From: a virus
Taxonomy: Duplodnaviria > Heunggongvirae > Uroviricota > Caudoviricetes
Length of the DNA stretch: 8,405 nucleotides
Reading direction: 5' to 3' (one strand)
Virus record (IMG/VR): IMGVR_UViG_3300015179_000040
Positions 1 to 8,068 of the stretch are shown piece after piece. Numbering within the stretch: position 1 is the stretch's first letter; every line of letters begins with the position of its first letter. The notes beneath the pieces were generated by a model, which saw nothing but the letters and a program-made list of their open reading frames with translations, was not told the origin of the DNA and made no database searches. The translations under genes and the position numbers were made by a program.

Positions 1-1131
1 TCAAATGACCAGTTTTTTCCACTCCTTACCGCGTACATCGTTGTAAATATCGGTCATTTTTTGATTCGAATGACCTAGCAAAATTTTGGTATCAACCCCC
101 TGCTCTCTGAACAATCGCTCTGATAAAGATCTCTGCTCATGGAAAGAGGGTGGGGTGCCATTAGCACGCCAGTTGTAATCCACAGAATCCCGGGCTTTTT
201 TAAATGCAACTGTTAATGTTGCTGGCTTAGCCATCCCGCCGCGCTTAGCTGTCCCTTTCGCGTGATGGTGGTGCAATAGCCACGGACTAAGAACACAATC
301 GCGGCAGGATGACACTACATCATCCAGGGTGAGATTTAATTTATCGCAACGCAGAGCCAGAGGGATGGCAATCCGGGTTCCTGTTTTTTGCTGTTCGACA
401 TGAAGATAACCATCCCGGATATCCGAAAATTGCATTTTGCAAATATCTGAAAGGCGCTGGCCTGTCATCAGTGCCAGCAGCATACCGCGCTGTAAAAAGT
501 AACCATCCTTTTCCGCTGCGTTATAAATCATCATCCACTCATCAAAAGTCAGTCGCTGTCTTGATATCCGCACCTGCGGTTTTTTTTCCTATTTTGCAGG
601 GTTAAAGCCTGGCGGGACATCGCCCGTTTGCTGAGCTTCCCGGAAAACATCGATCAGTACCTTCCTGAAAATTTGTCCCATTCTGTTATGTCCTCTGGCC
701 TTGTACTCTTCCAGTACTGATACCACATCTTTTACGGTTATGGCATCTAACGGTCTGGTGCCAAAACGTTCATCAAATACCCTGAGAGGGGCCGCTTTCT
801 GTTTCAGCGTGTTGAGTTTGATCTCGCCGTTTTCATATCTTTCCTGTTGAATTTTTCTGTAATTATTCAGAAAAATGGTAACGGTTGATGAACCGCCGGT
901 ATCACTAATAATTTTCTCCTGCAGACTGAGCATTTGTTCCATTTGCTGCCGGGCAAGACGGCTGTTCGCTTCTGCTGCAATAGTTTCTGCCAGTTTCTGG
1001 TCAATACTGCCGAGACCGTGATTTTTGCCTGTTATGGGATGCCTGTAACGCCAGTAAACTTTGTTATTTCTTTTGTCAAAATACGGAGATAATCCCGGAA
1101 CATTGGTTTTATATTTTCGCGGGCGCGCCAT
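1..1131 (-). pseudogene. int: Lambda-family tyrosine integrase, full-length reading frame (376 codons) interrupted by a single in-frame TAG at 589-591
   Basis: ORFs 589..1131 and 1..573 are in the same frame, separated only by TAG plus five sense codons (GAA AAA AAA CCG CAG) before a GTG. The N-terminal part resembles the lambda Int arm-binding/core-binding region (RNNKVYWRYRHPITGKNHGLG vs lambda RNNGYYCYRDPRTGKEFGLG). The C-terminal part carries the catalytic residues in lambda-like context (TGQRLSDI, VEQQKTG, FHEQRSL, LLGHSN, TDIYNDVRG, with Tyr nucleophile). Reading-frame stop TGA at 3..1. Identity from motif memory, no search run. Confidence 0.8.
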
Positions 1132-1421: not shown

Positions 1422-3896
1422 TTAAAAATCAGCCTGATTCGGGATCAGTTTTTGCCAGATAACTGAAACGTATTTTGCCTGGTAACGGGCGTCATCAAGT
1501 GCATTATGGCGCTCACCTTCGAATGGAATAGCCGTTCTGGCATCGAAGTCTATGGCTTTCCCCAGCTCAACGATTGTGCGTACATCGCGATCGTTGTAGT
1601 AACGCCACGGGCAGGGGATCCCCTGCCGTTCGTATGAACGGCGCAAAATCGTGTTGTCGAAGTTGGCTCCATTTCCCCAGACCTGAACAAAAAATTCACC
1701 GGAGTTTTCGTCGATAAATTCCCGCAATTGTAACAGTGCATCATCTAACGGGATTTCATCGGTCATAATGGCAGACTGCGCTTCACGTGATTGCTTCAGC
1801 CACCTTTTAATGACGTCACGATCAATGACTCCGCCAGCAGTTTCCAGATCGATAGTCTTACTAAATTCCGGTCCCATATCTCCGGTTTGCGGATCGAAAA
1901 ATATTGCACCTATTGAGATGATCGGGGCATCAGGATTTTTTCCCATGGTTTCAAGGTCGATCATTAGATGGTCACACGTCCTGCTGGTGGATGTGATTTC
2001 TTGATGACCGTTCACCTTAATTGAGTGATCTGCCGTCTCGCCAGTTTCATTATCGCTATCGTGATGCTGATTGCCGTCAGTGTTCTCCTTGTGTGGATGT
2101 TCAGCGCCTTCCATTTCCTCCGGATCATCTTCCTGAACTTCAACCTGATACTCTTCATCGAATGTTTCCTGGTATGTTGCGTCGCCCATCACCGCGCCAC
2201 AATCAGGGCAGTTGCCGCCGCCGGTCTGACCGCAGGCGGTGCAGACTTTTTCCACTTCCTGTTGCGCCACTGGTTCAGGCTGTTTCGTTTCTGGCTCGTT
2301 TTGTAACGCATTTGGGCTGTTTTGTTCCGCTTTCTGGCCGTTCTGTTCCGTTTCTTGCTGGTTCTGATTCACTGAATCGCGGGTTTCAATCCCCTTCACC
2401 CATTTCGGATCATTCGGGTCGCTAATCCCTGCAACAAATTCACCACGTGATACAGCAAGCAACTTATTGGCGTCAGGCTGGCTGATATTGGCTGCCTGCA
2501 TAATTTTGTTTACTTCGTCAGCGGTAACTTTTACCGGCTCTGGTTGTGCGATCGTGTCAGATGCACCAGTATTTTGTTGTGAACCTGAGTACGTGCCGTT
2601 TTTACGTGCGAAGTATTCCTCTTTTGTGATTTCCGTAGCTCCCAGGGCCAGTGCTTTTTCCAGACCAGAAAGTTTGTTTGCGCGACCGTATTTTTCGCCG
2701 TCCTTATCGGTGAAAAGGAAGTAGAACGGTCCCTCACGCTCTACAGATGGTTCGTCTTCCACTTCGCATTCGGTTTTTTCGTTGTCCGGCATTGCCGTTT
2801 CCACTGCATCAGTTTCTGGTACTGGTGACGGGAGAGTACCAGCTGTGCCCTGATTTGTTCCTTCGTCATCTTCAAACACGCCCTTGGTAGTCAGGTATTC
2901 AGTGATGTATTTGTTCAGTGCTACGGGATCTTTGTGAATGTCGATCGGACGCTCACGGACAAGGCCAAAAATAGTCTGACGGTCGTAGCGAACGGCATCG
3001 GGTTGTTTGCGCATTGATGCGGAAATGCGCTTCCAGTCTTCGCGATCTTTGTCGATAACTTCATTTTTTGCCCAGCGATGGATGCTGCCGTCAATGTTTC
3101 CGGTATCAATATCGCCAGGCCAGAGAGCGTAGGCCAGTTCTTCATCCAGCGTTTTCCATGTCTGCTTGTATTCGCGACAAATGGCGGCAGTGACTGGGTT
3201 GATTTTTCCTGCTGAGTTTTCAGTGTTCTGTTGATTGACTCTGGCGCTGGCGAGATCAACAACAGACGTGTATTTTCCAGTCTCTTTGCGCTCTGCGTCC
3301 TGCCGTTTTTTCCAGTTACGTAATTCAGCCTGAATTTCGGGCCATTTGGCACCCGGATTACATTTGTGTTTAACCCATCCGATAGCGAACAGTTTGCGTT
3401 CCGGATACATAGCGTTAATTTCAGGCGTTTTCATCAGTGCTTCAACGATATGCCCGTCAAAGGTAGCAACGTCTTCCTGCAGTAATTCCTGCGCGTCAAT
3501 CGCCATATCAACGGTGATGTTTTCACATGTACCGAACTTAACCAGGACCGCGTTCTGTACTTCAAGGGACAGCTTGTCAAAATTGACGTTCATCGGATCG
3601 GATTCTGGTTCGACCGGAATAAAGGAAGCGGATTCCTCATCCCAGCGGTTTTCCTGCATATATTCAGCATCCCAGGAATCGAGGGCAGGGCGGGGTATAC
3701 CGGGTTTATCCTCGCAGACAAGAAATTTATAAGCGCAGTCCTGAGCAGCCGGATAATGTTCCAGGAATTGCCAGTGAAATTTTGCGCGGGCGCGACGTTC
3801 ATCACCGGCTTCAATGGCAGTGGCTACAGCGACGGCACCTTCTTCCTTTATTGCCTGTTCGTCCGGAATGGCGGCGCAAATAAAGACTTTACTCAT
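1422..3896 (-). CDS. Large prophage exonuclease (824 aa): RecE-like N-terminal region, acidic linker with CxxC-x7-CxxC knuckle, C-terminal DnaQ-like DEDDh 3'-5' exonuclease domain
   Basis: Long uninterrupted ORF with SD (GAGGT) 9 nt upstream of the ATG. The C-terminus has the three DEDDh motifs (MIDLETMG; WGNGANFDN; HNALDDARYQAKY). The central motif LLAVSRGEFVAGISDPNDPKWVKGIETRD matches what I remember of the RecE (exonuclease VIII) N-terminal region. Position between ydfD-like and xis matches the ydfE slot of K-12 Qin. No search run. Confidence 0.8.
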   Translation of the reverse strand: MSKVFICAAIPDEQAIKEEGAVAVATAIEAGDERRARAKFHWQFLEHYPAAQDCAYKFLVCEDKPGIPRPALDSWDAEYMQENRWDEESASFIPVEPESDPMNVNFDKLSLEVQNAVLVKFGTCENITVDMAIDAQELLQEDVATFDGHIVEALMKTPEINAMYPERKLFAIGWVKHKCNPGAKWPEIQAELRNWKKRQDAERKETGKYTSVVDLASARVNQQNTENSAGKINPVTAAICREYKQTWKTLDEELAYALWPGDIDTGNIDGSIHRWAKNEVIDKDREDWKRISASMRKQPDAVRYDRQTIFGLVRERPIDIHKDPVALNKYITEYLTTKGVFEDDEGTNQGTAGTLPSPVPETDAVETAMPDNEKTECEVEDEPSVEREGPFYFLFTDKDGEKYGRANKLSGLEKALALGATEITKEEYFARKNGTYSGSQQNTGASDTIAQPEPVKVTADEVNKIMQAANISQPDANKLLAVSRGEFVAGISDPNDPKWVKGIETRDSVNQNQQETEQNGQKAEQNSPNALQNEPETKQPEPVAQQEVEKVCTACGQTGGGNCPDCGAVMGDATYQETFDEEYQVEVQEDDPEEMEGAEHPHKENTDGNQHHDSDNETGETADHSIKVNGHQEITSTSRTCDHLMIDLETMGKNPDAPIISIGAIFFDPQTGDMGPEFSKTIDLETAGGVIDRDVIKRWLKQSREAQSAIMTDEIPLDDALLQLREFIDENSGEFFVQVWGNGANFDNTILRRSYERQGIPCPWRYYNDRDVRTIVELGKAIDFDARTAIPFEGERHNALDDARYQAKYVSVIWQKLIPNQADF
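2277..2381 (-). repeat. Degenerate 21-bp (heptad) tandem repeats inside the exonuclease gene
   Basis: About 4-5 imperfect copies of a GTTYTGTTCCGYTTCTKGCYG-like unit. They encode Q/N/E-rich heptads NQQETEQ / NGQKAEQ / NSPNALQ / NEPETKQ / PEPVAQQ in the linker preceding the zinc knuckle. Confidence 0.45.
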
Positions 3897-3975: not shown

Positions 3976-4179
3976 TTACGGCGCTGTTTTTAATCCTGCC
4001 GGGATTTCGTTATTGTCCATGTGAATAACTTTATCGACCGGATAACAGTTGCCGGGAATTTTCTGTTCCGCTGCGGCAGCCATGCATTCTTTCATTGAGT
4101 TGTACATGCCGGTGATTGCATCAAGCGACTCACCAGTATTGAGATGTACAGTCAGAATGAGTACGAATAATGTGTTCAT
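3976..4179 (-). CDS. ydfD: YdfD-like small membrane protein (DUF1482-type; reported lysis protein in Qin)
   Basis: 67 aa from the ATG at 4179..4177 (MNTLFVLILTVHLNTGESLDAITGMYNSMKECMAAAAEQKIPGNCYPVDKV...). Hydrophobic N-terminus. Its ATG overlaps the dicB TGA stop (ATGA), indicating translational coupling. Sits in the same position relative to dicB as K-12 ydfD. The ORF track starts it at an upstream GTG (4185). Confidence 0.7.
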   Translation of the reverse strand: MNTLFVLILTVHLNTGESLDAITGMYNSMKECMAAAAEQKIPGNCYPVDKVIHMDNNEIPAGLKTAP

Positions 4180-4364
4180 CGCCACTCTCCGAAAATACCG
4201 AGTTTAAGAAGGGCAATTCTGGAGAGTATGGAATTGTCATTCAGCAGGTAGGGTTCATATTTTCTCATATTGATTGCATCCTCGGTGAAATCCCTGTTAC
4301 TGAGCAGAACACCAATATTAAAGCACCCGTCAGACGTATTAACGTTTGGTAGTGACGTTTCCAT
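4176..4364 (-). CDS. dicB: DicB-family cell division inhibitor (MinC-activating, FtsZ-ring inhibitor)
   Basis: 62-aa ORF METSLPNVNTSDGCFNIGVLLSNRDFTEDAINMRKYE... matches my memory of the E. coli DicB N-terminal signature (LPNVNTSEGCFEIGV...FTEDAIN.RK). SD GAGGA 8 nt upstream, overlapping the rha stop codon. Confidence 0.85.
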   Translation of the reverse strand: METSLPNVNTSDGCFNIGVLLSNRDFTEDAINMRKYEPYLLNDNSILSRIALLKLGIFGEWR

Positions 4365-4374
4365 TATCGCGTCC

Positions 4375-4932
4375 TCAACAATGAATTTTTAGCAATTGCT
4401 CCACAGTCATATTTTTAATTGCGCTCCGGTTTACAAGAGTCCATCCTTGTTTCTCCAGATAAAACCGGAAGGTATCCAGGGTGCAGACCATTGCGCCGTC
4501 AGGAACGGTTTCAGTGAATTTGATATTGCCGTGTTCGTCGAGACGGATAACCAGGGTGCGTCCGTCCCCGTGAATCATTTTGTCGGGAGACGGGGCGTTA
4601 TTCTGGCGCAGTTCTGCTTCCATGCGGTCGAACTCAGCAATGTATGCCTCTTTAAATGCAGCGGCTTTTTTGCCAGTGAAGCCCATCACCAGGAAAACGA
4701 AGCCGTTTTTGGTGATTTGGTACATTGGGAGTTTGCGCCCGGTTGAGTCGGTGTATTCGCTCGACACAAAATTGTGCTCAGTGAATTTTGCTGAACAGTC
4801 CAGATTGCGAATTTTATCCAACACTCGTTCGTGGCGTTTGCCAAAGAACTCGGCGATCGCAACAGACGTAGTGACAGCGCGACCATTTTCGATGGTTACG
4901 TCAGGGTGAGAAAGGGTAAGGATAGTAGCCAT
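4375..4932 (-). CDS. rha: Rha-family phage regulatory protein (Phage_pRha domain; antirepressor-like)
   Basis: Start chosen at the ATG 4932..4930 (MATILTLSHPDVTIENGRAVTTSVAIAEFFGKRHERVLDKIRNL...YQITKNGFVFLVMGFTGKKAAAFKEAYIAEFDRME), preceded by GGAGG at 8-nt spacing. These motifs are typical of the Rha family. The in-frame upstream extension to 5229 in the ORF track was rejected (see noticed_but_rejected). Confidence 0.75.
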   Translation of the reverse strand: MATILTLSHPDVTIENGRAVTTSVAIAEFFGKRHERVLDKIRNLDCSAKFTEHNFVSSEYTDSTGRKLPMYQITKNGFVFLVMGFTGKKAAAFKEAYIAEFDRMEAELRQNNAPSPDKMIHGDGRTLVIRLDEHGNIKFTETVPDGAMVCTLDTFRFYLEKQGWTLVNRSAIKNMTVEQLLKIHC

Positions 4933-5097
4933 GATGGCAGCCTCCGCGATGAATTTGATTAACTCACCACCGAGGTTTTCCACGACCATAAGGGTGGTGA
5001 GACGTACAGGGGTGGAAATACCGGTCATCACGGAACCCGGCCAGCCTTGCGGCTGCCCTGCACGCCCCACCATAATGCGAATGTGGCTGTGCTTAAC

Positions 5098-5128
5098 GCA
5101 TAAAAAAACCGCCTGAGCGCGGTTATGC
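5098..5128 (-). terminator. Rho-independent terminator upstream of rha, within the operon
   Basis: On the minus strand: GCAUAACCGC-GCUCAG-GCGGUUUUUUUAUGC. A short GC stem with 6-nt loop followed directly by a 7-U tract. The plus strand has no U tract after the stem. Confidence 0.5.
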
Positions 5129-5410
5129 GCCGTGAATGATTTCGGGTTTCCACGCCCGGCACCCGTTTTATGAGGTGCAGGTGCACTATAATTCCACCCG
5201 TTCTGGTTTTCAATAGCTACATTCAACATTTTCTCTACCTTTCATCACCGAAGTGAACTTTGTTGATGCGGTGCCTGGTGCCTCCAGGTGACGTTAACCA
5301 GTTAACAATTAACGTCGGATACAGAGCATTCCCGTTACGCCCGTAAAAGACCGCTTGTTTTAACTGTTCCGCGTGCGCTGAGCCGCATTCACCGCATCAC
5401 AAAATTCACT

Positions 5411-5472
5411 TTAAAAGGGGCGGGTATCATGGGAAAAACAAAACGGATACCCGCCAAAAGGTAATCAACATG
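5411..5472 (-). ncRNA. dicF: DicF-like small RNA (divergent homolog) ending in an intrinsic terminator
   Basis: Minus-strand sequence UGUUGAUUACCUUUUGGCGGGUAUCCGUUUUGUUUUUCCCAUGAUACCCGCCCCUUUUAA has a 10-bp stem GGCGGGUAUC/GAUACCCGCC followed by CCUUUU. It resembles, from memory, E. coli DicF (…UUUGGCGGUAUCAGUUUUACUCC…GCCGCCCUUUUU). Synteny fits: downstream of ydfC-like, upstream of dicB. Ends are approximate; not confirmed by a covariance model. Confidence 0.45.
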
Positions 5473-5795
5473 GGTTGTTGCAGCGGGGTTGTCACTCAGG
5501 CGTATGGTCAACCTGACAACCCGGTGGACATTTGCGAGGAACGGAGAACCCCCGCCATACTTACCGCCGCGCCATTTCGCGGAGTGCCACAACCGGAAGC
5601 GCACGGTCGACGAAAATTTAACGACAGGCTATCTATGAACCAGCAACCTCGCCGTGCGCTTTCGCGTTATGCTCTGACTTTTCAGAGAAATATCCTTTCA
5701 GTAAACTGTCAGTGCCGGATGCTCACCCGTGTCCGGCGCACACACTCCACCTCACCCGTGGAGAACTCCTTAATTACCAACCCTCAGGAGGGTGA

Positions 5796-6029
5796 ATGTT
5801 AAAATCAACGCTTATTGCTAAATGCCTTTATCAAAATCGCATGGTAAGCAGCATTTCAATAGGCGAGTCTGCAGTTAAAAGTATTTTCGAAGAGTACTTT
5901 CCCGGGCATGATTTTAATAAATGGAATACCAAATTACCGCCAGCAGTTTCAACGCGTATTCTGAAAGCAACTGAAAGAGCAAGTACAATTCGCGTTAACT
6001 ATTTCATTAAAGATTTGTGGGATCTTTGA
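5796..6029 (+). CDS. Hypothetical 77-aa protein, opposite strand to the operon, convergent with and overlapping the 3' end of the 135-aa ORF
   Basis: ORF with AGGAGG-type SD 4-5 nt before the ATG at 5796. Protein-like composition (MLKSTLIAKCLYQNRMVSSISIGESAVKSIFEEYFPGHDFNKWNTKLPP...). No homolog recognised. Could be a chance ORF in an AT-rich stretch. Confidence 0.3.
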   Translation: MLKSTLIAKCLYQNRMVSSISIGESAVKSIFEEYFPGHDFNKWNTKLPPAVSTRILKATERASTIRVNYFIKDLWDL

Positions 6030-6814: not shown

Positions 6815-6970
6815 TCACTCACCTGAGTTTCTTTCCAGCCAGCGACGGGCACCATTTTCGGTTTTAAACGTTTTGCTTTTGGTATACGTCATCGCGGTGA
6901 ACGTACCGTCCTGGTTGGGGAACACACCACATACCAGAGATTCGTTGTTGCCAAGATCGATAGTATCCAT
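6815..6970 (-). CDS. ydfA: YdfA-like small protein (51 aa, DUF1391-type)
   Basis: Hand translation (not in ORF track): MDTIDLGNNESLVCGVFPNQDGTFTAMTYTKSKTFKTENGARRWLERNSGE. SD GAGG about 6 nt upstream of the ATG at 6970..6968. First gene after the predicted operon promoter. Confidence 0.65.
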   Translation of the reverse strand: MDTIDLGNNESLVCGVFPNQDGTFTAMTYTKSKTFKTENGARRWLERNSGE

Positions 6971-7035
6971 GTTGACCTCATTTCCCCTTAACGCCGGGTG
7001 GCGGAACTAAAACCTACAGCGCCGTGCTGTTCTTG

Positions 7036-7075
7036 ATAGAAATATTAGTAACGCGGATATTTTAAGTCAATAGTA
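7036..7075 (-). promoter_or_regulatory. Sigma-70 promoter of the ydfA-dicB-type operon with embedded operator-like motif
   Basis: Minus strand reads TTGACT-(17 nt)-TAATAT (-35 at plus coords 7065-7070, -10 at 7042-7047), about 65 nt upstream of the ydfA-like ATG. Contains the 9-mer AAATATTAG, which recurs at 7128-7136 and inverted at 7756-7764. Confidence 0.55.
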
Positions 7076-7167
7076 TGGCGTATGATATTTTTGATTTGGT
7101 AACTATGTAAATGTTTTTTCAAGGGAAAAATATTAGTTATACAGCTGATTTGCAGAAGTTATGGCAC

Positions 7168-7197
7168 AAAAAAACCGACTAAGACGTCGGTTTTTTT
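7168..7197. terminator. Bidirectional rho-independent terminator downstream of the repressor gene
   Basis: A7-CCGAC-UAAGAC-GUCGG-U7: GC stem flanked by complementary A and U tracts, so it can terminate on either strand. Lies 27 nt after the repressor stop. Confidence 0.6.
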
Positions 7198-7223
7198 GTT
7201 GTGGATGGGGTAGTGAGCGGTGG

Positions 7224-7685
7224 CTACTGGTTACGTTTCTTTAGTGCCAGCATGTTCTCGAAGGCTTCCTCGTAGAGCTTGTTTAGTCCACGTAGCTGGT
7301 TAAGGAGTTTGGCTTTTTCTGACGCAGGTAGAATCTCGAAGAGGTTAAGTAACTCTGCCTGTTCTTCATTGACCAGCCTCCATCCTTTGCCTGAAAAGTT
7401 ATCATCATAAGTATCTGATGATCTTACATAATTCATTAAGTCTTTAAGGTCTTCTCGAATGTCCTCTGGTTTTACCTTTAACAGAGCCGCAAATTTTAGC
7501 GCAGCGTCGGTATTTACCGGTATCTTGCCGTTCAGATACTGGCTAACGGTGCCTTGAGATTCGAATCCCAACAACTCAGCCGCCAGCTCTTGAGTCAGCT
7601 TCAGCTCTTTTTTTCTTGCATTCCATGCGGCTTTTAAATTCTTGCTCGCTTCTGGAGTTGCAATCACTTCGCGTGTTTTTTTCAT
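7224..7685 (-). CDS. DicA-like HTH (XRE-family) prophage repressor, no LexA/S24 autocleavage domain
   Basis: 153-aa ORF with HTH LTQELAAELLGFESQGTVSQYLNG and C-terminal LNLFEILPASEKAKLLNQLRGLNKLYEEAFENMLALKK, resembling the DicA C-terminus (LELFNALPESEQ...FNKLFEELLKARQ) from memory. Divergent from the Cro-like gene. No recognisable SD before the ATG. Confidence 0.75.
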   Translation of the reverse strand: MKKTREVIATPEASKNLKAAWNARKKELKLTQELAAELLGFESQGTVSQYLNGKIPVNTDAALKFAALLKVKPEDIREDLKDLMNYVRSSDTYDDNFSGKGWRLVNEEQAELLNLFEILPASEKAKLLNQLRGLNKLYEEAFENMLALKKRNQ

Positions 7686-7691
7686 ACATAG

Positions 7692-7719
7692 AGTTTATTT
7701 GTTTTACCAATATTATCAA
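7692..7719 (-). promoter_or_regulatory. Candidate repressor promoter (PRM-like); possibly leaderless transcript
   Basis: Minus strand TTGATA-(16 nt)-TAAACT ending 6 nt before the ATG, which would place the transcription start at or next to the start codon. No SD present. Weak -10, inference only. Confidence 0.35.
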
Positions 7720-7733
7720 AGATAGTCTGGCTA

Positions 7734-7762
7734 TTGATCTTTAAAATTAGCGGGGCTAATAT
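7734..7762 (+). promoter_or_regulatory. Promoter of the ydaS/ydaT-like operon with palindromic operator in the spacer
   Basis: TTGATC-(17 nt)-TAATAT on the plus strand. The palindrome ATTAGC-GGG-GCTAAT (7746-7760) spans the spacer and -10. The whole module is near-identical to the operon promoter at 7036-7075 (TTGAYY-TWWAAAWW-CSCG-CTAATATTT). Confidence 0.55.
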
Positions 7763-7792
7763 TTGCTCGAGGCATAACGTAGAAGGTTGGCT

Positions 7793-8068
7793 ATGAACTT
7801 AAGAGACTATTTAAAAGAGAAACATATCACCCAGCTACAGTTTGGGAAGCTAACGGGTTTATCTCAGGTGCATGTAAGTCGAGTGCTGGGAGGCTATGAA
7901 AGATTCAGCCCTGAAAAAGCATTACGTGTTGCTGAAGTAACGAATTTCGAGGTTACACCTCATGAACTCCGGCCTGATATTTACCCGAATCCAACCGACG
8001 GCTTACCTGTTGGATTCAAGGCTAACACACCAAATGCATCGGAGTTGATTCATGAAAATCAGGCATGA
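7793..8068 (+). CDS. YdaS-family Cro-like HTH regulator
   Basis: 91 aa from the ATG at 7793 (SD GAAGG 6 nt upstream): MNLRDYLKEKHITQLQFGKLTGLSQVHVSRVLGGYERFSPEKALRVAEVTNFEVTPHELRPDIYP. HTH plus the HELRPD motif I associate with Cro-like YdaS proteins. Occupies the dicC/cro position. The ORF track starts at an upstream TTG (7787). Confidence 0.65.
   Translation: MNLRDYLKEKHITQLQFGKLTGLSQVHVSRVLGGYERFSPEKALRVAEVTNFEVTPHELRPDIYPNPTDGLPVGFKANTPNASELIHENQA

What the first reader, a model, noticed from the sequence alone, without database searches (positions are those of the whole stretch)
7036..7770. The same roughly 40-bp promoter/operator module appears twice in inverted orientation, on both sides of the repressor gene
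The operon promoter (minus strand, TACTATTGACTTAAAATATCCGCGTTACTAATATTTC) and the ydaS-like promoter (plus strand, GCTATTGATCTTTAAAATTAGCGGGGCTAATATTTG) share the -35, a palindromic spacer and an identical CTAATATTT around the -10. A third AAATATTAG copy lies at 7128-7136. This suggests one repressor, presumably the DicA-like protein, controls both the dicB-type operon and the YdaS/YdaT-like pair through operators in the promoter spacers, possibly with looping to the auxiliary site.
Basis: seen in the sequence. Interest (0 to 1): 0.55.

Follow-up and report, generated by a model that had tools for sequence, protein, structure and literature searches.

The report
Prophage left and right operator-promoter pair
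The two look-alike promoter modules are the left and right promoter/operator sites of a lambda-type immunity region in an E. coli prophage. This layout is already described for the related Qin, Rac and CP-933P prophages, so the finding is real but ordinary.

Summary
Two sigma-70-type promoters face away from the 153-aa repressor gene (7224-7685, minus strand). They share 24 of 34 aligned bases, including CTATTGA at the -35 and CTAATATTT at the -10. A third CTAATATTT lies at 7128-7136. The similarity exceeds chance and extends beyond the promoter hexamers.

The window is a Qin/Rac-type lambdoid prophage of E. coli. The left module is the PL-type promoter of the ydfA...dicB operon. The right module is the PR-type promoter of ydaS/ydaT.

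The left module travels with the repressor, not with the operon it drives. It occurs in 178 genomes and the repressor in 180, whereas the ydfA leader occurs in 3,872. Homology to other immunity types stops 13-27 bp downstream of the predicted start site. Across five diverged lineages the left and right sites co-vary.

I infer 15-21 bp pseudo-palindromic operators (ATTAGY-N3-RCTAAT), about three on the right and two or more on the left. The same layout is published, with binding or reporter evidence, for DicA/dicBp, RacR and PaaR2/PL933P. No binding data exist for this immunity type. This is a new member of a known kind. Looping through the third site remains untested.

The parts
7042..7070 (-). 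PL-type promoter of the ydfA...dicB operon: -35 TTGACT (7070->7065), 17-nt spacer, -10 TAATAT (7047->7042). Predicted start about 7034-7036.
   Evidence: The same design (TTGACC-17-TAATCT with an operator in the spacer) is seen at K-12 dicBp. The start site is inferred, not mapped.
7041..7061 (.). OL1, inferred 21-bp operator AAT ATCCGC GTT ACTAAT ATT (minus strand), centre 7051. It overlaps the spacer and the -10 of PL.
   Evidence: Strain variants change only half-site positions 3, 4 and 6 and the centre.
7066..7086 (.). OL2, tentative operator ATC ATACGC CAT ACTATT GAC, centre 7076. It overlaps the -35 of PL and would account for the shared CTATTGA.
   Evidence: It lies 25 bp from OL1. The assignment is weak in this single genome (4 of 12 mismatches to the ideal palindrome).
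7128..7137 (-). Third copy ACTAATATTT, an isolated half-site 88 bp upstream of OL1.
   Evidence: It is conserved in E. coli strains and Enterobacter, and as ACTAAAATTTT in Salmonella. The partner half is not conserved. Function unknown.
7166..7199 (.). Perfect 14-bp hairpin flanked by A and T runs. Likely a bidirectional terminator ending the repressor transcript.
   Evidence: I3, 100% complementary. An equivalent hairpin is present in all relatives.
7224..7685 (-). Immunity repressor, 153 aa: lambda CI-like HTH N-domain plus DicA-like C-terminal helices. It has no S24 peptidase domain and no Ala-Gly bond.
7692..7719 (-). PRM-like promoter TTGATA-16-TAAACT. The predicted +1 is the A of the ATG at 7685, giving a leaderless repressor mRNA.
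   Evidence: A -10-like hexamer lies exactly 6 nt before the ATG in Hafnia and Salmonella too. Leaderless paaR2 and lambda cI are precedents. Inferred.
7694..7714 (.). OR3, inferred operator TTT ATTTGT TTT ACCAAT ATT, centre 7704. It overlaps the PRM-like promoter.
   Evidence: A dyad recurs at this position in four of the seven loci scanned.
7718..7738 (.). OR2, tentative operator AAA GATAGT CTG GCTATT GAT, centre 7728. It overlaps the -35 of PR.
   Evidence: RacR O2 overlaps the ydaS -35 in the same way (GCCTATTGACA).
7743..7763 (.). OR1, operator AAA ATTAGC GGG GCTAAT ATT, centre 7753, a perfect 6-3-6 palindrome. It overlaps the spacer and the -10 of PR.
   Evidence: (0 mismatches). Within E. 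coli only the central bases and position 6 of the left half vary.
7734..7762 (+). PR-type promoter of ydaS/ydaT: -35 TTGATC (7734-7739), 17-nt spacer, -10 TAATAT (7757-7762). Predicted start about 7769.
   Evidence: The Rac ydaS promoter TTGACA-18-TAATAT is the experimentally studied counterpart.
7793..8068 (+). YdaS-like (Cro analogue) HTH protein. It co-inherits with the repressor and the operators.
6815..6970 (-). ydfA (DUF1391), first gene of the dicB-type operon driven by the left module.

Best explanation
The two modules are the PL/OL and PR/OR promoter-operator regions of a lambda-type immunity cassette in a Qin/Rac-like E. coli prophage. The cassette spans window positions about 7016/7034 to at least 8068.

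Proposed mechanism (inferred): dimers of the 153-aa repressor bind pseudo-palindromic operators with core ATTAGY-N3-RCTAAT, about 21 bp with A/T flanks.
- One operator on each side sits across the spacer and -10. These are OL1, centre 7051, and OR1, centre 7753.
- A second operator lies about 25 bp upstream across the -35. These are OL2, centre 7076, and OR2, centre 7728.
- A third operator on the right, OR3 (centre 7704), covers the repressor's own leaderless-type promoter.

Occupancy excludes RNA polymerase. This silences the leftward ydfA...dicB...exonuclease-xis-int operon and the rightward ydaS-ydaT-replication operon. The Cro-like YdaS probably reads the same sites. Because the repressor has no S24 peptidase domain and no Ala-Gly bond, release is more likely through an antirepressor than through RecA-stimulated self-cleavage.

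Shown here: the sequences, their above-chance similarity, their genetic linkage to the repressor, their covariation and the homologies. Inferred: binding, the operator boundaries, the start sites and the mode of induction.
For: 1. The repeat is real and above chance.

2. Context. The window is a prophage at the Qin attachment site with int, xis, exonuclease, ydfD, dicB, ydfC, ydfA | repressor | ydaS, ydaT, replication genes.

3. Linkage.
- The left intergenic region (7031-7223) occurs in 178 E. coli genomes and the repressor plus right region in 180.
- ydfA plus its leader occurs in 3,872 genomes. In those, homology ends at window 7008-7022, occasionally 7033, just downstream of the predicted +1.
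- The same cassette sits upstream of other left operons: kilR, sieB, ydaF/ydaG or RecE types.

4. Covariation. In five diverged lineages (repressor 58-71% identical to the window's), a dyad sits at the same offset from the -10 of both promoters. Left-right pairing within a genome scores highest among all 120 permutations: 1 of 120 reach it for the full 21-mers, 3 of 120 for the promoter-distal 12 nt. Hafnia is the clearest case, AATATGAATATAA(G/A)TAATAT on both sides.

5. Population variation. Among E. coli and Enterobacter carriers, changes fall at the operator centre and at half-site positions 3, 4 and 6. Positions A1, T2 and G5 and the RCTAAT half stay fixed.

6. Repressor. The HTH N-domain is closest to lambda CI in sequence (E 3e-4) and in fold (TM 0.71-0.83 relative to the lambda CI N-domain chains). 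The C-terminus is homologous to DicA.

7. Precedents.
- K-12 dicBp carries a DicA-type operator in its spacer and -10, and operators at both dicA-dicC and dicBp are described.
- DicA binding to its operator Oc was shown in vivo.
- RacR operators (T/A)TAGGC-N3-GCCTA(T/A), with the same 6-3-6 geometry, were footprinted. Matching sites flank the Rac left promoter.
- In CP-933P, PL has -35 and -10 elements identical to PR, carries OL1-3, and is repressed about 100-fold by PaaR2 or YdaS.
Against: - There are no binding, footprint or transcription-start data for this immunity type.
- Within the window alone only OR1 is a convincing palindrome. OL1, OL2, OR2 and OR3 have 3-4 mismatches out of 12 to it, no better than several background hits.
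- The degenerate consensus scan is circular, because the pattern was derived from these same sites.
- In the window, the distal halves of OL1 and OR1 match at only 7 of 12 positions. The window's OR1 matches the Serratia OL1 slightly better, at 8 of 12.
- The registration of sites in the diverged lineages involved manual shifts of 1 nt.
- YdaS co-inherits with the cassette, so the genetics cannot separate repressor binding from YdaS binding.
Confidence: 0.85

Rival explanations
1. The resemblance is only what two strong sigma-70 promoters in A+T-rich DNA share. No common operator exists.
For: 10 of the 24 matching positions lie in the -35 and -10 hexamers. The CTAATATTT core contains the -10 TAATAT. 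The single-genome palindrome scan is not distinctive apart from OR1.
Against: - 14 of 22 positions outside the hexamers match, P about 3.5e-4.
- OR1 is a perfect 6-3-6 dyad.
- The left module is inherited with the repressor, not with the operon it drives.
- Spacer sequences co-vary left and right across lineages.
- Related prophages have experimentally bound operators in the same places.
Confidence: 0.04
2. The repeated motif is read mainly by the Cro-like YdaS or another cassette protein, not by the 153-aa repressor.
For: YdaS is inherited with the same cassette: 96-98% identical in the E. coli carriers, 73% in Enterobacter and 44-50% in the diverged lineages. In CP-933P, YdaS footprints the same region as PaaR2 and represses PL. 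TTAG/CTAA cores recur in operators of unrelated repressors, DicA, RacR and PaaR2.
Against: In lambda-type switches both proteins share the operators, so this supplements rather than replaces the main reading. The repressor's N-domain is lambda CI-like. The conserved operator positions A1, T2 and G5 correspond, from memory of the lambda CI-operator complex, to lambda operator positions 2, 3 and 6. The window's YdaS shows no detectable similarity to K-12 DicC.
Confidence: 0.07
3. The sites are decayed relics in a cryptic prophage with no present regulatory role.
For: The integrase reading frame appears split in the window. The distal half of OL1 varies among strains.
Against: The repressor and right intergenic region are at least 95% identical in all 181 records. 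All genes of the cassette are intact. Variation avoids the inferred contact positions. The cassette also occurs in the complete phage genome record Rac-SA53.
Confidence: 0.04

Closest known systems
dicA-dicC immunity locus and dicBp of prophage Qin, E. coli K-12 (Bejar et al. 1988, as cited in PMC10448788; Yun et al. 2012, PMC3441716)
   Same: - Same chromosomal site, next to rspB.
- Same gene order: Cro-like gene, then repressor, then the ydfA-ydfC-dicB-ydfD operon.
- The dicBp promoter carries a repressor operator across its spacer and -10, and a related operator lies between the divergent genes.
- The repressor C-terminus is homologous.
- Neither repressor has a cleavage domain.
   Different: - The DNA-binding domain is not detectably similar to DicA's. 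Only residues 111-152 align.
- The operators differ: ATTAGY-N3-RCTAAT here, TTGTTAGTCATAACTAACAA for DicA.
- The Cro-like protein is unrelated to DicC.
- ydaT is present here.
- No DicF match was found in the window.
PaaR2 / YdaS / YdaT switch with PR933P, PRM933P and PL933P in prophage CP-933P (PMC8630535)
   Same: - Divergent PR and PRM with several operators.
- A PL whose -35 and -10 are identical to those of PR, with OL1-3 resembling the OR sites.
- Both PaaR2 and YdaS repress PL.
- The repressor mRNA is leaderless.
- YdaS and YdaT stand in for Cro and CII.
- A YdaT box lies at the ydaS/ydaT junction, as in the window at 8045-8062.
   Different: - The half-site consensus differs (GTTTAGTAA, 18-bp palindromes).
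- A toxin-antitoxin pair follows paaR2.
RacR-ydaS-ydaT region of prophage Rac, E. coli K-12 (PMC9638921, PMC11879457)
   Same: - Same 6-3-6 operator geometry, (T/A)TAGGC-N3-GCCTA(T/A).
- O1 lies in the ydaS promoter and overlaps a TAATAT -10. O2 overlaps the -35.
- Matching sites lie at the leftward promoter beyond racR.
- YdaS is 32% identical over 50 aa.
   Different: RacR shows no significant similarity to this repressor. The half-site sequence and the promoter spacer length (18 against 17) differ.
Bacteriophage lambda OL/PL and OR/PR/PRM with CI and Cro
   Same: - The repressor N-domain is the closest solved relative.
- Operators are duplicated on both sides of the repressor gene.
- Inferred operator spacing is about 24-25 bp.
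- The PR and PRM starts are about 84 bp apart.
- The repressor start is leaderless.
(The lambda values are from established knowledge and were not computed here.)
   Different: There is no S24 self-cleavage or oligomerisation domain. The operator sequence differs. OL and OR are about 0.7 kb apart rather than about 2.3 kb. Cooperativity and looping are unknown.

Membership tests
Lambdoid immunity region (repressor flanked by OL/PL and OR/PR) | Repressor gene lies between two outward-facing early promoters, with a divergent Cro-type gene on one side. | tested here: met
Lambdoid immunity region (repressor flanked by OL/PL and OR/PR) | The same operator motif is present at both promoters and overlaps RNA polymerase contacts. 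| tested here: met
   OL1 and OR1 both sit 4 nt upstream of the -10 start.
Lambdoid immunity region (repressor flanked by OL/PL and OR/PR) | Operators are inherited with the repressor as one exchangeable immunity cassette. | tested here: met
   (178, 180 and 3,872 genomes). Different left operons are seen.
Lambdoid immunity region (repressor flanked by OL/PL and OR/PR) | Multiple (typically three) adjacent operators on each side. | tested here: inconclusive
   OR1 is clear and OR3 recurs across lineages. OR2 and OL2 are weak. OL3 is degenerate in the window.
Lambdoid immunity region (repressor flanked by OL/PL and OR/PR) | The repressor binds the operators and represses both promoters. | not testable with these tools
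   Needs EMSA or footprinting and reporter assays.
DicA-type repressor | XRE/HTH_3 N-domain plus a short helical C-domain homologous to DicA, with no peptidase S24 domain and no Ala-Gly site. | tested here: met
   HTH_3 is the only Pfam domain type. The C-terminal 42 aa are 38% identical to DicA. There is no AG dipeptide in the sequence.
DicA-type repressor | DicA DNA-binding specificity (operator TTGTTAGTCATAACTAACAA). | tested here: not met
   The N-domains do not align. The operators differ. This is a heteroimmune relative, not DicA itself.
Lambda CI / LexA-type cleavable repressor | Lambda CI-like N-terminal HTH domain. | tested here: met
   E 3e-4 to 1e-3; TM 0.71-0.83 relative to the lambda CI N-domain chains, 29-32% identity.
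Lambda CI / LexA-type cleavable repressor | C-terminal S24 peptidase domain for RecA-stimulated self-cleavage. | tested here: not met
   No PF00717 match. Only more distant homologues of the N-domain carry it (P0023-P0030).

The most novel reading that the evidence does not exclude
The repressor is a natural chimera of a lambda CI-type DNA-binding domain and a DicA-type C-terminal domain. It might assemble a higher-order OL-OR loop of about 0.7 kb. The conserved isolated half-site at 7128-7137, 88 bp upstream of OL1, would serve as an extra anchor. That would be looping without the lambda CI C-terminal domain. A related possibility is that the recurring TTAG...CTAA core in operators of unrelated repressors (DicA, RacR, PaaR2 and this one) reflects a shared constraint, such as a common Cro-type partner or promoter scaffold, rather than coincidence.
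Probability: 0.1. Interest if true: 0.35.

Novelty: new member of a known kind. Interest (0 to 1): 0.15.

Why it matters
The finding defines the likely operators and promoters of one more immunity type among Qin/Rac-like prophages. This type is carried by about 3% of complete E. coli genomes (180 of 5,426). Here it controls the cell-division inhibitor dicB, prophage excision genes and the toxic-when-expressed ydaS/ydaT pair. It gives concrete sites for annotation and for mutational or binding tests. It also shows a lambda CI-type DNA-binding domain joined to a DicA-type tail. It does not reveal a new regulatory principle.

Tried and rejected
- A single-genome scan for ATTAGC-N3-GCTAAT, and for all 6-3-6 palindromes, did not single out the regulatory regions apart from OR1. 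Operator calls therefore rest on comparative data.
- The degenerate consensus scan gave 6 hits against 0.3 expected. It is circular, so I do not count it as independent evidence.
- The promoter-like hit TTTACA-18-TATCAT at 7111->7082 is not conserved in Enterobacter or in some E. coli strains. I rejected it as a second promoter.
- Third copy at 7128-7137: I found no acceptable -35 for a promoter using its TAATAT. Its partner half is not conserved in Enterobacter. I kept it only as a conserved half-site.
- The sub-threshold Rfam matches over 7082-7204 (STnc370, IS128 and others) all fall below their gathering scores and are driven by the terminator hairpin. Rejected.
- The leader RNA 6968-7036 does not fold better than shuffled sequence (z = 0.79), so I make no RNA-element claim.
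- The genome-contig scan returned only three loci. Relatives were obtained with the look-up of encoding contigs instead.
- RacR homology was tested and rejected. DicC homology of YdaS was tested and rejected.
- The AlphaFold model is confident only for residues about 10-90, so nothing can be said about the oligomeric state.
- A literature search for this specific immunity type (Rac-SA53) found nothing relevant.

Full report
OBSERVATION. Both quoted strings are in the window. On the minus strand, CTATTGACTTAAAATATCCGCGTTACTAATATTT runs 7073->7040. On the plus strand, CTATTGATCTTTAAAATTAGCGGGGCTAATATTT runs 7731-7764. The repeat finder reports them as a 34-nt inverted repeat, 71% complementary, with 657 nt between the arms. 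CTAATATTT occurs exactly three times in the window, at 7040-48 (-), 7128-36 (-) and 7756-64 (+).

The best 34-nt match between the two intergenic regions is 24/34. Dinucleotide-preserving shuffles gave a mean of 18.9 and a maximum of 22, and 0 of 300 reached 24. Outside the -35 and -10 hexamers, 14 of 22 positions still match (P about 3.5e-4). Each module is a good sigma-70 promoter: TTGACT-17-TAATAT on the left and TTGATC-17-TAATAT on the right. The right spacer holds a perfect dyad, ATTAGC-GGG-GCTAAT. The left one, ATCCGC-GTT-ACTAAT, is only pseudo-symmetric.

WHAT THE LOCUS IS. The 6900-7900 stretch is 100% identical to E. coli strain E400634. There it lies in a prophage next to rspB/rspA/ynfA, the genes that also flank the Qin prophage of K-12 (from established knowledge). 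In that strain the gene order is integrase, excisionase, an 826-aa exonuclease (824 aa in the window), ydfD-like (DUF1482), dicB, ydfC, ydfA | HTH repressor | YdaS, YdaT, DnaT-like and P-like replication genes, RusA and an antiterminator. Pfam confirms DicB, DUF1482, DUF1391 (YdfA), YdaS and HTH_3. The left module therefore sits where dicBp (the PL analogue) sits in Qin. The right module sits where the dicC/ydaS promoter (the PR analogue) sits.

THE REPRESSOR. The protein has 153 aa, and HTH domains are its only Pfam matches. Its N-domain is closest to the lambda CI N-terminal domain in sequence (E 3e-4) and in predicted fold (TM 0.71-0.83 relative to the lambda CI N-domain chains, 29-32% identity). 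Its last 42 residues are 38% identical to the C-terminus of K-12 DicA. It has no S24 peptidase domain and no Ala-Gly dipeptide, and it is unrelated to RacR. More distant relatives of the N-domain do carry S24 domains. It is thus a non-cleavable, DicA-style repressor with a lambda CI-style reading head and a specificity different from DicA's.

LINKAGE (strongest evidence). The left intergenic DNA (7031-7223) is found in 178 of 5,426 complete E. coli genomes. The repressor plus right intergenic DNA is found in 180. By contrast, ydfA with its 5' leader is found in 3,872 genomes. In those, homology stops at window 7008-7022, occasionally 7033, which is 13-27 bp downstream of the predicted PL start. 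Phage records break at the same place.

Conversely, the same repressor-plus-modules cassette is joined to quite different left operons:
- rac11/kilR in phage Rac-SA53.
- ydaG/ydaF, sieB or kilR types in other E. coli strains.
- sieB/kilR in Enterobacter.
- RecE-type operons in Hafnia and Serratia.

The left module therefore belongs to the immunity cassette, not to the dicB operon. YdaS also travels with the cassette.

OPERATORS (inferred). I compared carriers of near-identical repressors (E. coli strains, E. albertii, Enterobacter ludwigii at 92%) with diverged ones (Salmonella 70%, a metagenome-assembled genome (MAG) 68%, Hafnia 71%, an unnamed lineage 63%, Serratia 58%). The comparison reveals a dyad centred 4 nt upstream of the -10 start in both promoters of every lineage. 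A second recurrent dyad lies about 49 bp further left on the right side.

In the window the candidates are as follows.

| Site | Coordinates | Sequence |
|---|---|---|
| OR1 | 7743-7763 | AAA ATTAGC GGG GCTAAT ATT |
| OR2 | 7718-7738 | AAA GATAGT CTG GCTATT GAT |
| OR3 | 7694-7714 | TTT ATTTGT TTT ACCAAT ATT |
| OL1 | 7061->7041 | AAT ATCCGC GTT ACTAAT ATT |
| OL2 | 7086->7066 | ATC ATACGC CAT ACTATT GAC |

OR2 and OL2 overlap the -35, which would explain the shared CTATTGA. Centre-to-centre spacing is 24-25 bp.

Among strains, substitutions fall in the central three bases and at half-site positions 3, 4 and 6. A1, T2, G5 and the RCTAAT half are kept. This gives the working consensus ATnnGY-N3-RCYAWT. 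Across five independent lineages, pairing each genome's OL1 with its own OR1 gives the highest total identity of all 120 permutations. One of 120 reach it for the 21-mers, and 3 of 120 for the promoter-distal 12 nt.

Four caveats apply:
- Within the window only OR1 is an outstanding palindrome.
- The consensus scan is circular.
- Some registrations were set by eye.
- In the window itself the distal halves of OL1 and OR1 match at only 7 of 12 positions.

OTHER ANATOMY. A promoter-like TTGATA-16-TAAACT (7719->7692) would start transcription at the A of the repressor ATG (7685), giving a leaderless mRNA. A -10-like hexamer sits exactly 6 nt before the ATG in Hafnia and Salmonella too. A perfect 14-bp hairpin (7166-7199) ends the repressor transcript.

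The third CTAATATTT (7128-7137) is conserved in E. coli and Enterobacter, and as ACTAAAATTTT in Salmonella. Its partner half is not conserved, and no promoter can be built on it. It remains a conserved half-site of unknown role.

COMPARISON WITH WHAT IS KNOWN.
- K-12 dicBp reads TTGACC-GATATGTTAGTCATGGC-TAATCT. It carries a copy of the DicA operator (Oc = TTGTTAGTCATAACTAACAA) across its spacer and -10. The literature already states that both the dicA-dicC and the dicA-dicBp intergenic regions carry operators like those at lambda PR and PL.
- RacR operators (T/A)TAGGC-N3-GCCTA(T/A) were footprinted. O1 lies in the ydaS promoter. I find matching sites at the Rac left promoter and the same -35/-10 overlaps.
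[quoted passage not shown] It carries OL1-3 similar to the OR sites and is repressed about 100-fold by PaaR2 or YdaS. They also report a leaderless repressor mRNA.

The finding is therefore a heteroimmune member of a described architecture. I found no paper on this particular immunity type.

VERDICT. Looping via the third site is untested. I rate it a new member of a known kind, of low general interest but useful for annotation.

Noticed in passing
window 4990-5077 (-), 5102-5178 (-), 4375-5229 (-): Rfam gathering-level hits to C4 antisense RNA (81.9 bits) and isrK (67.7 bits) lie immediately upstream of a Rha-family gene (Pfam Phage_pRha on 4375-4926). The long 284-aa ORF overlaps both RNAs. 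RefSeq annotates equivalents as roughly 283-aa 'Rha family phage regulatory protein'. Its first ~100 codons are therefore probably not coding. This P1 immI-like / isrK-type module sits inside the PL-driven operon next to dicB. From the gene coordinates (about 870 bp less between the exonuclease gene and ydfA) it appears to be absent from strain E400634, which is otherwise identical over 6900-7900. This was not confirmed by alignment.
   Followed up: partly
window 4365-5800: dicB is present (4176-4364), but no DicF sRNA match reached Rfam's gathering score anywhere in the window. In K-12, dicF lies just upstream of dicB.
   Followed up: no
window 8045-8062: The inverted repeat TTGATT-CATGAA-AATCAG has the ydaT start codon (8052) in its spacer. 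It matches the published YdaT box TTGATT-N6-AATCAA of CP-933P and Rac, the CII-like site at the PRE analogue.
   Followed up: partly
window 6975-7030 (minus-strand leader of ydfA): The 5' leader from about 7030 to the ydfA start is conserved across immunity types and genera (E. coli, Enterobacter, Salmonella, a MAG, K-12 Qin and Rac). It includes the hairpin ACAGC-ACGGC-GCTGT (7016-7030), flagged as terminator-like, and a CGCC-ACCC-GGCG stem. In K-12 the first stem reads ACACC...GGTGT, a compensatory change. Its folding energy is not unusual (z = 0.79) and it has no Rfam match. Its role is unknown; it could be an attenuator or a nut/put-like element.
   Followed up: partly
window 7685-7719: The predicted repressor promoter places +1 on the A of the ATG, with no Shine-Dalgarno sequence. 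This implies a leaderless mRNA, as for lambda cI and paaR2. The geometry is conserved in the Hafnia and Salmonella relatives.
   Followed up: partly
window 7091-7111; L018 (Enterobacter) equivalent: At the OL3 position, Enterobacter and several E. coli strains carry a TTAG-N3-CTAA palindrome (for example TTCGTTTAGTAACTAATCGAA). It resembles the CP-933P half-site consensus GTTTAGTAA. The window has a degenerate version, and the spacing differs from OL1 and OR1.
   Followed up: no
window 1-1131 (-): The integrase reading frame is split into two ORFs (1-573 and 589-1131). The equivalent gene in strain E400634 is a single 431-aa ORF. This could be a nonsense or frameshift mutation.
   Followed up: no
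window 3867-3881 (-): There is one further exact match to the derived operator consensus (ATTTGCGCCGCCATT), near the start of the exonuclease gene. It is probably chance.
   Followed up: no
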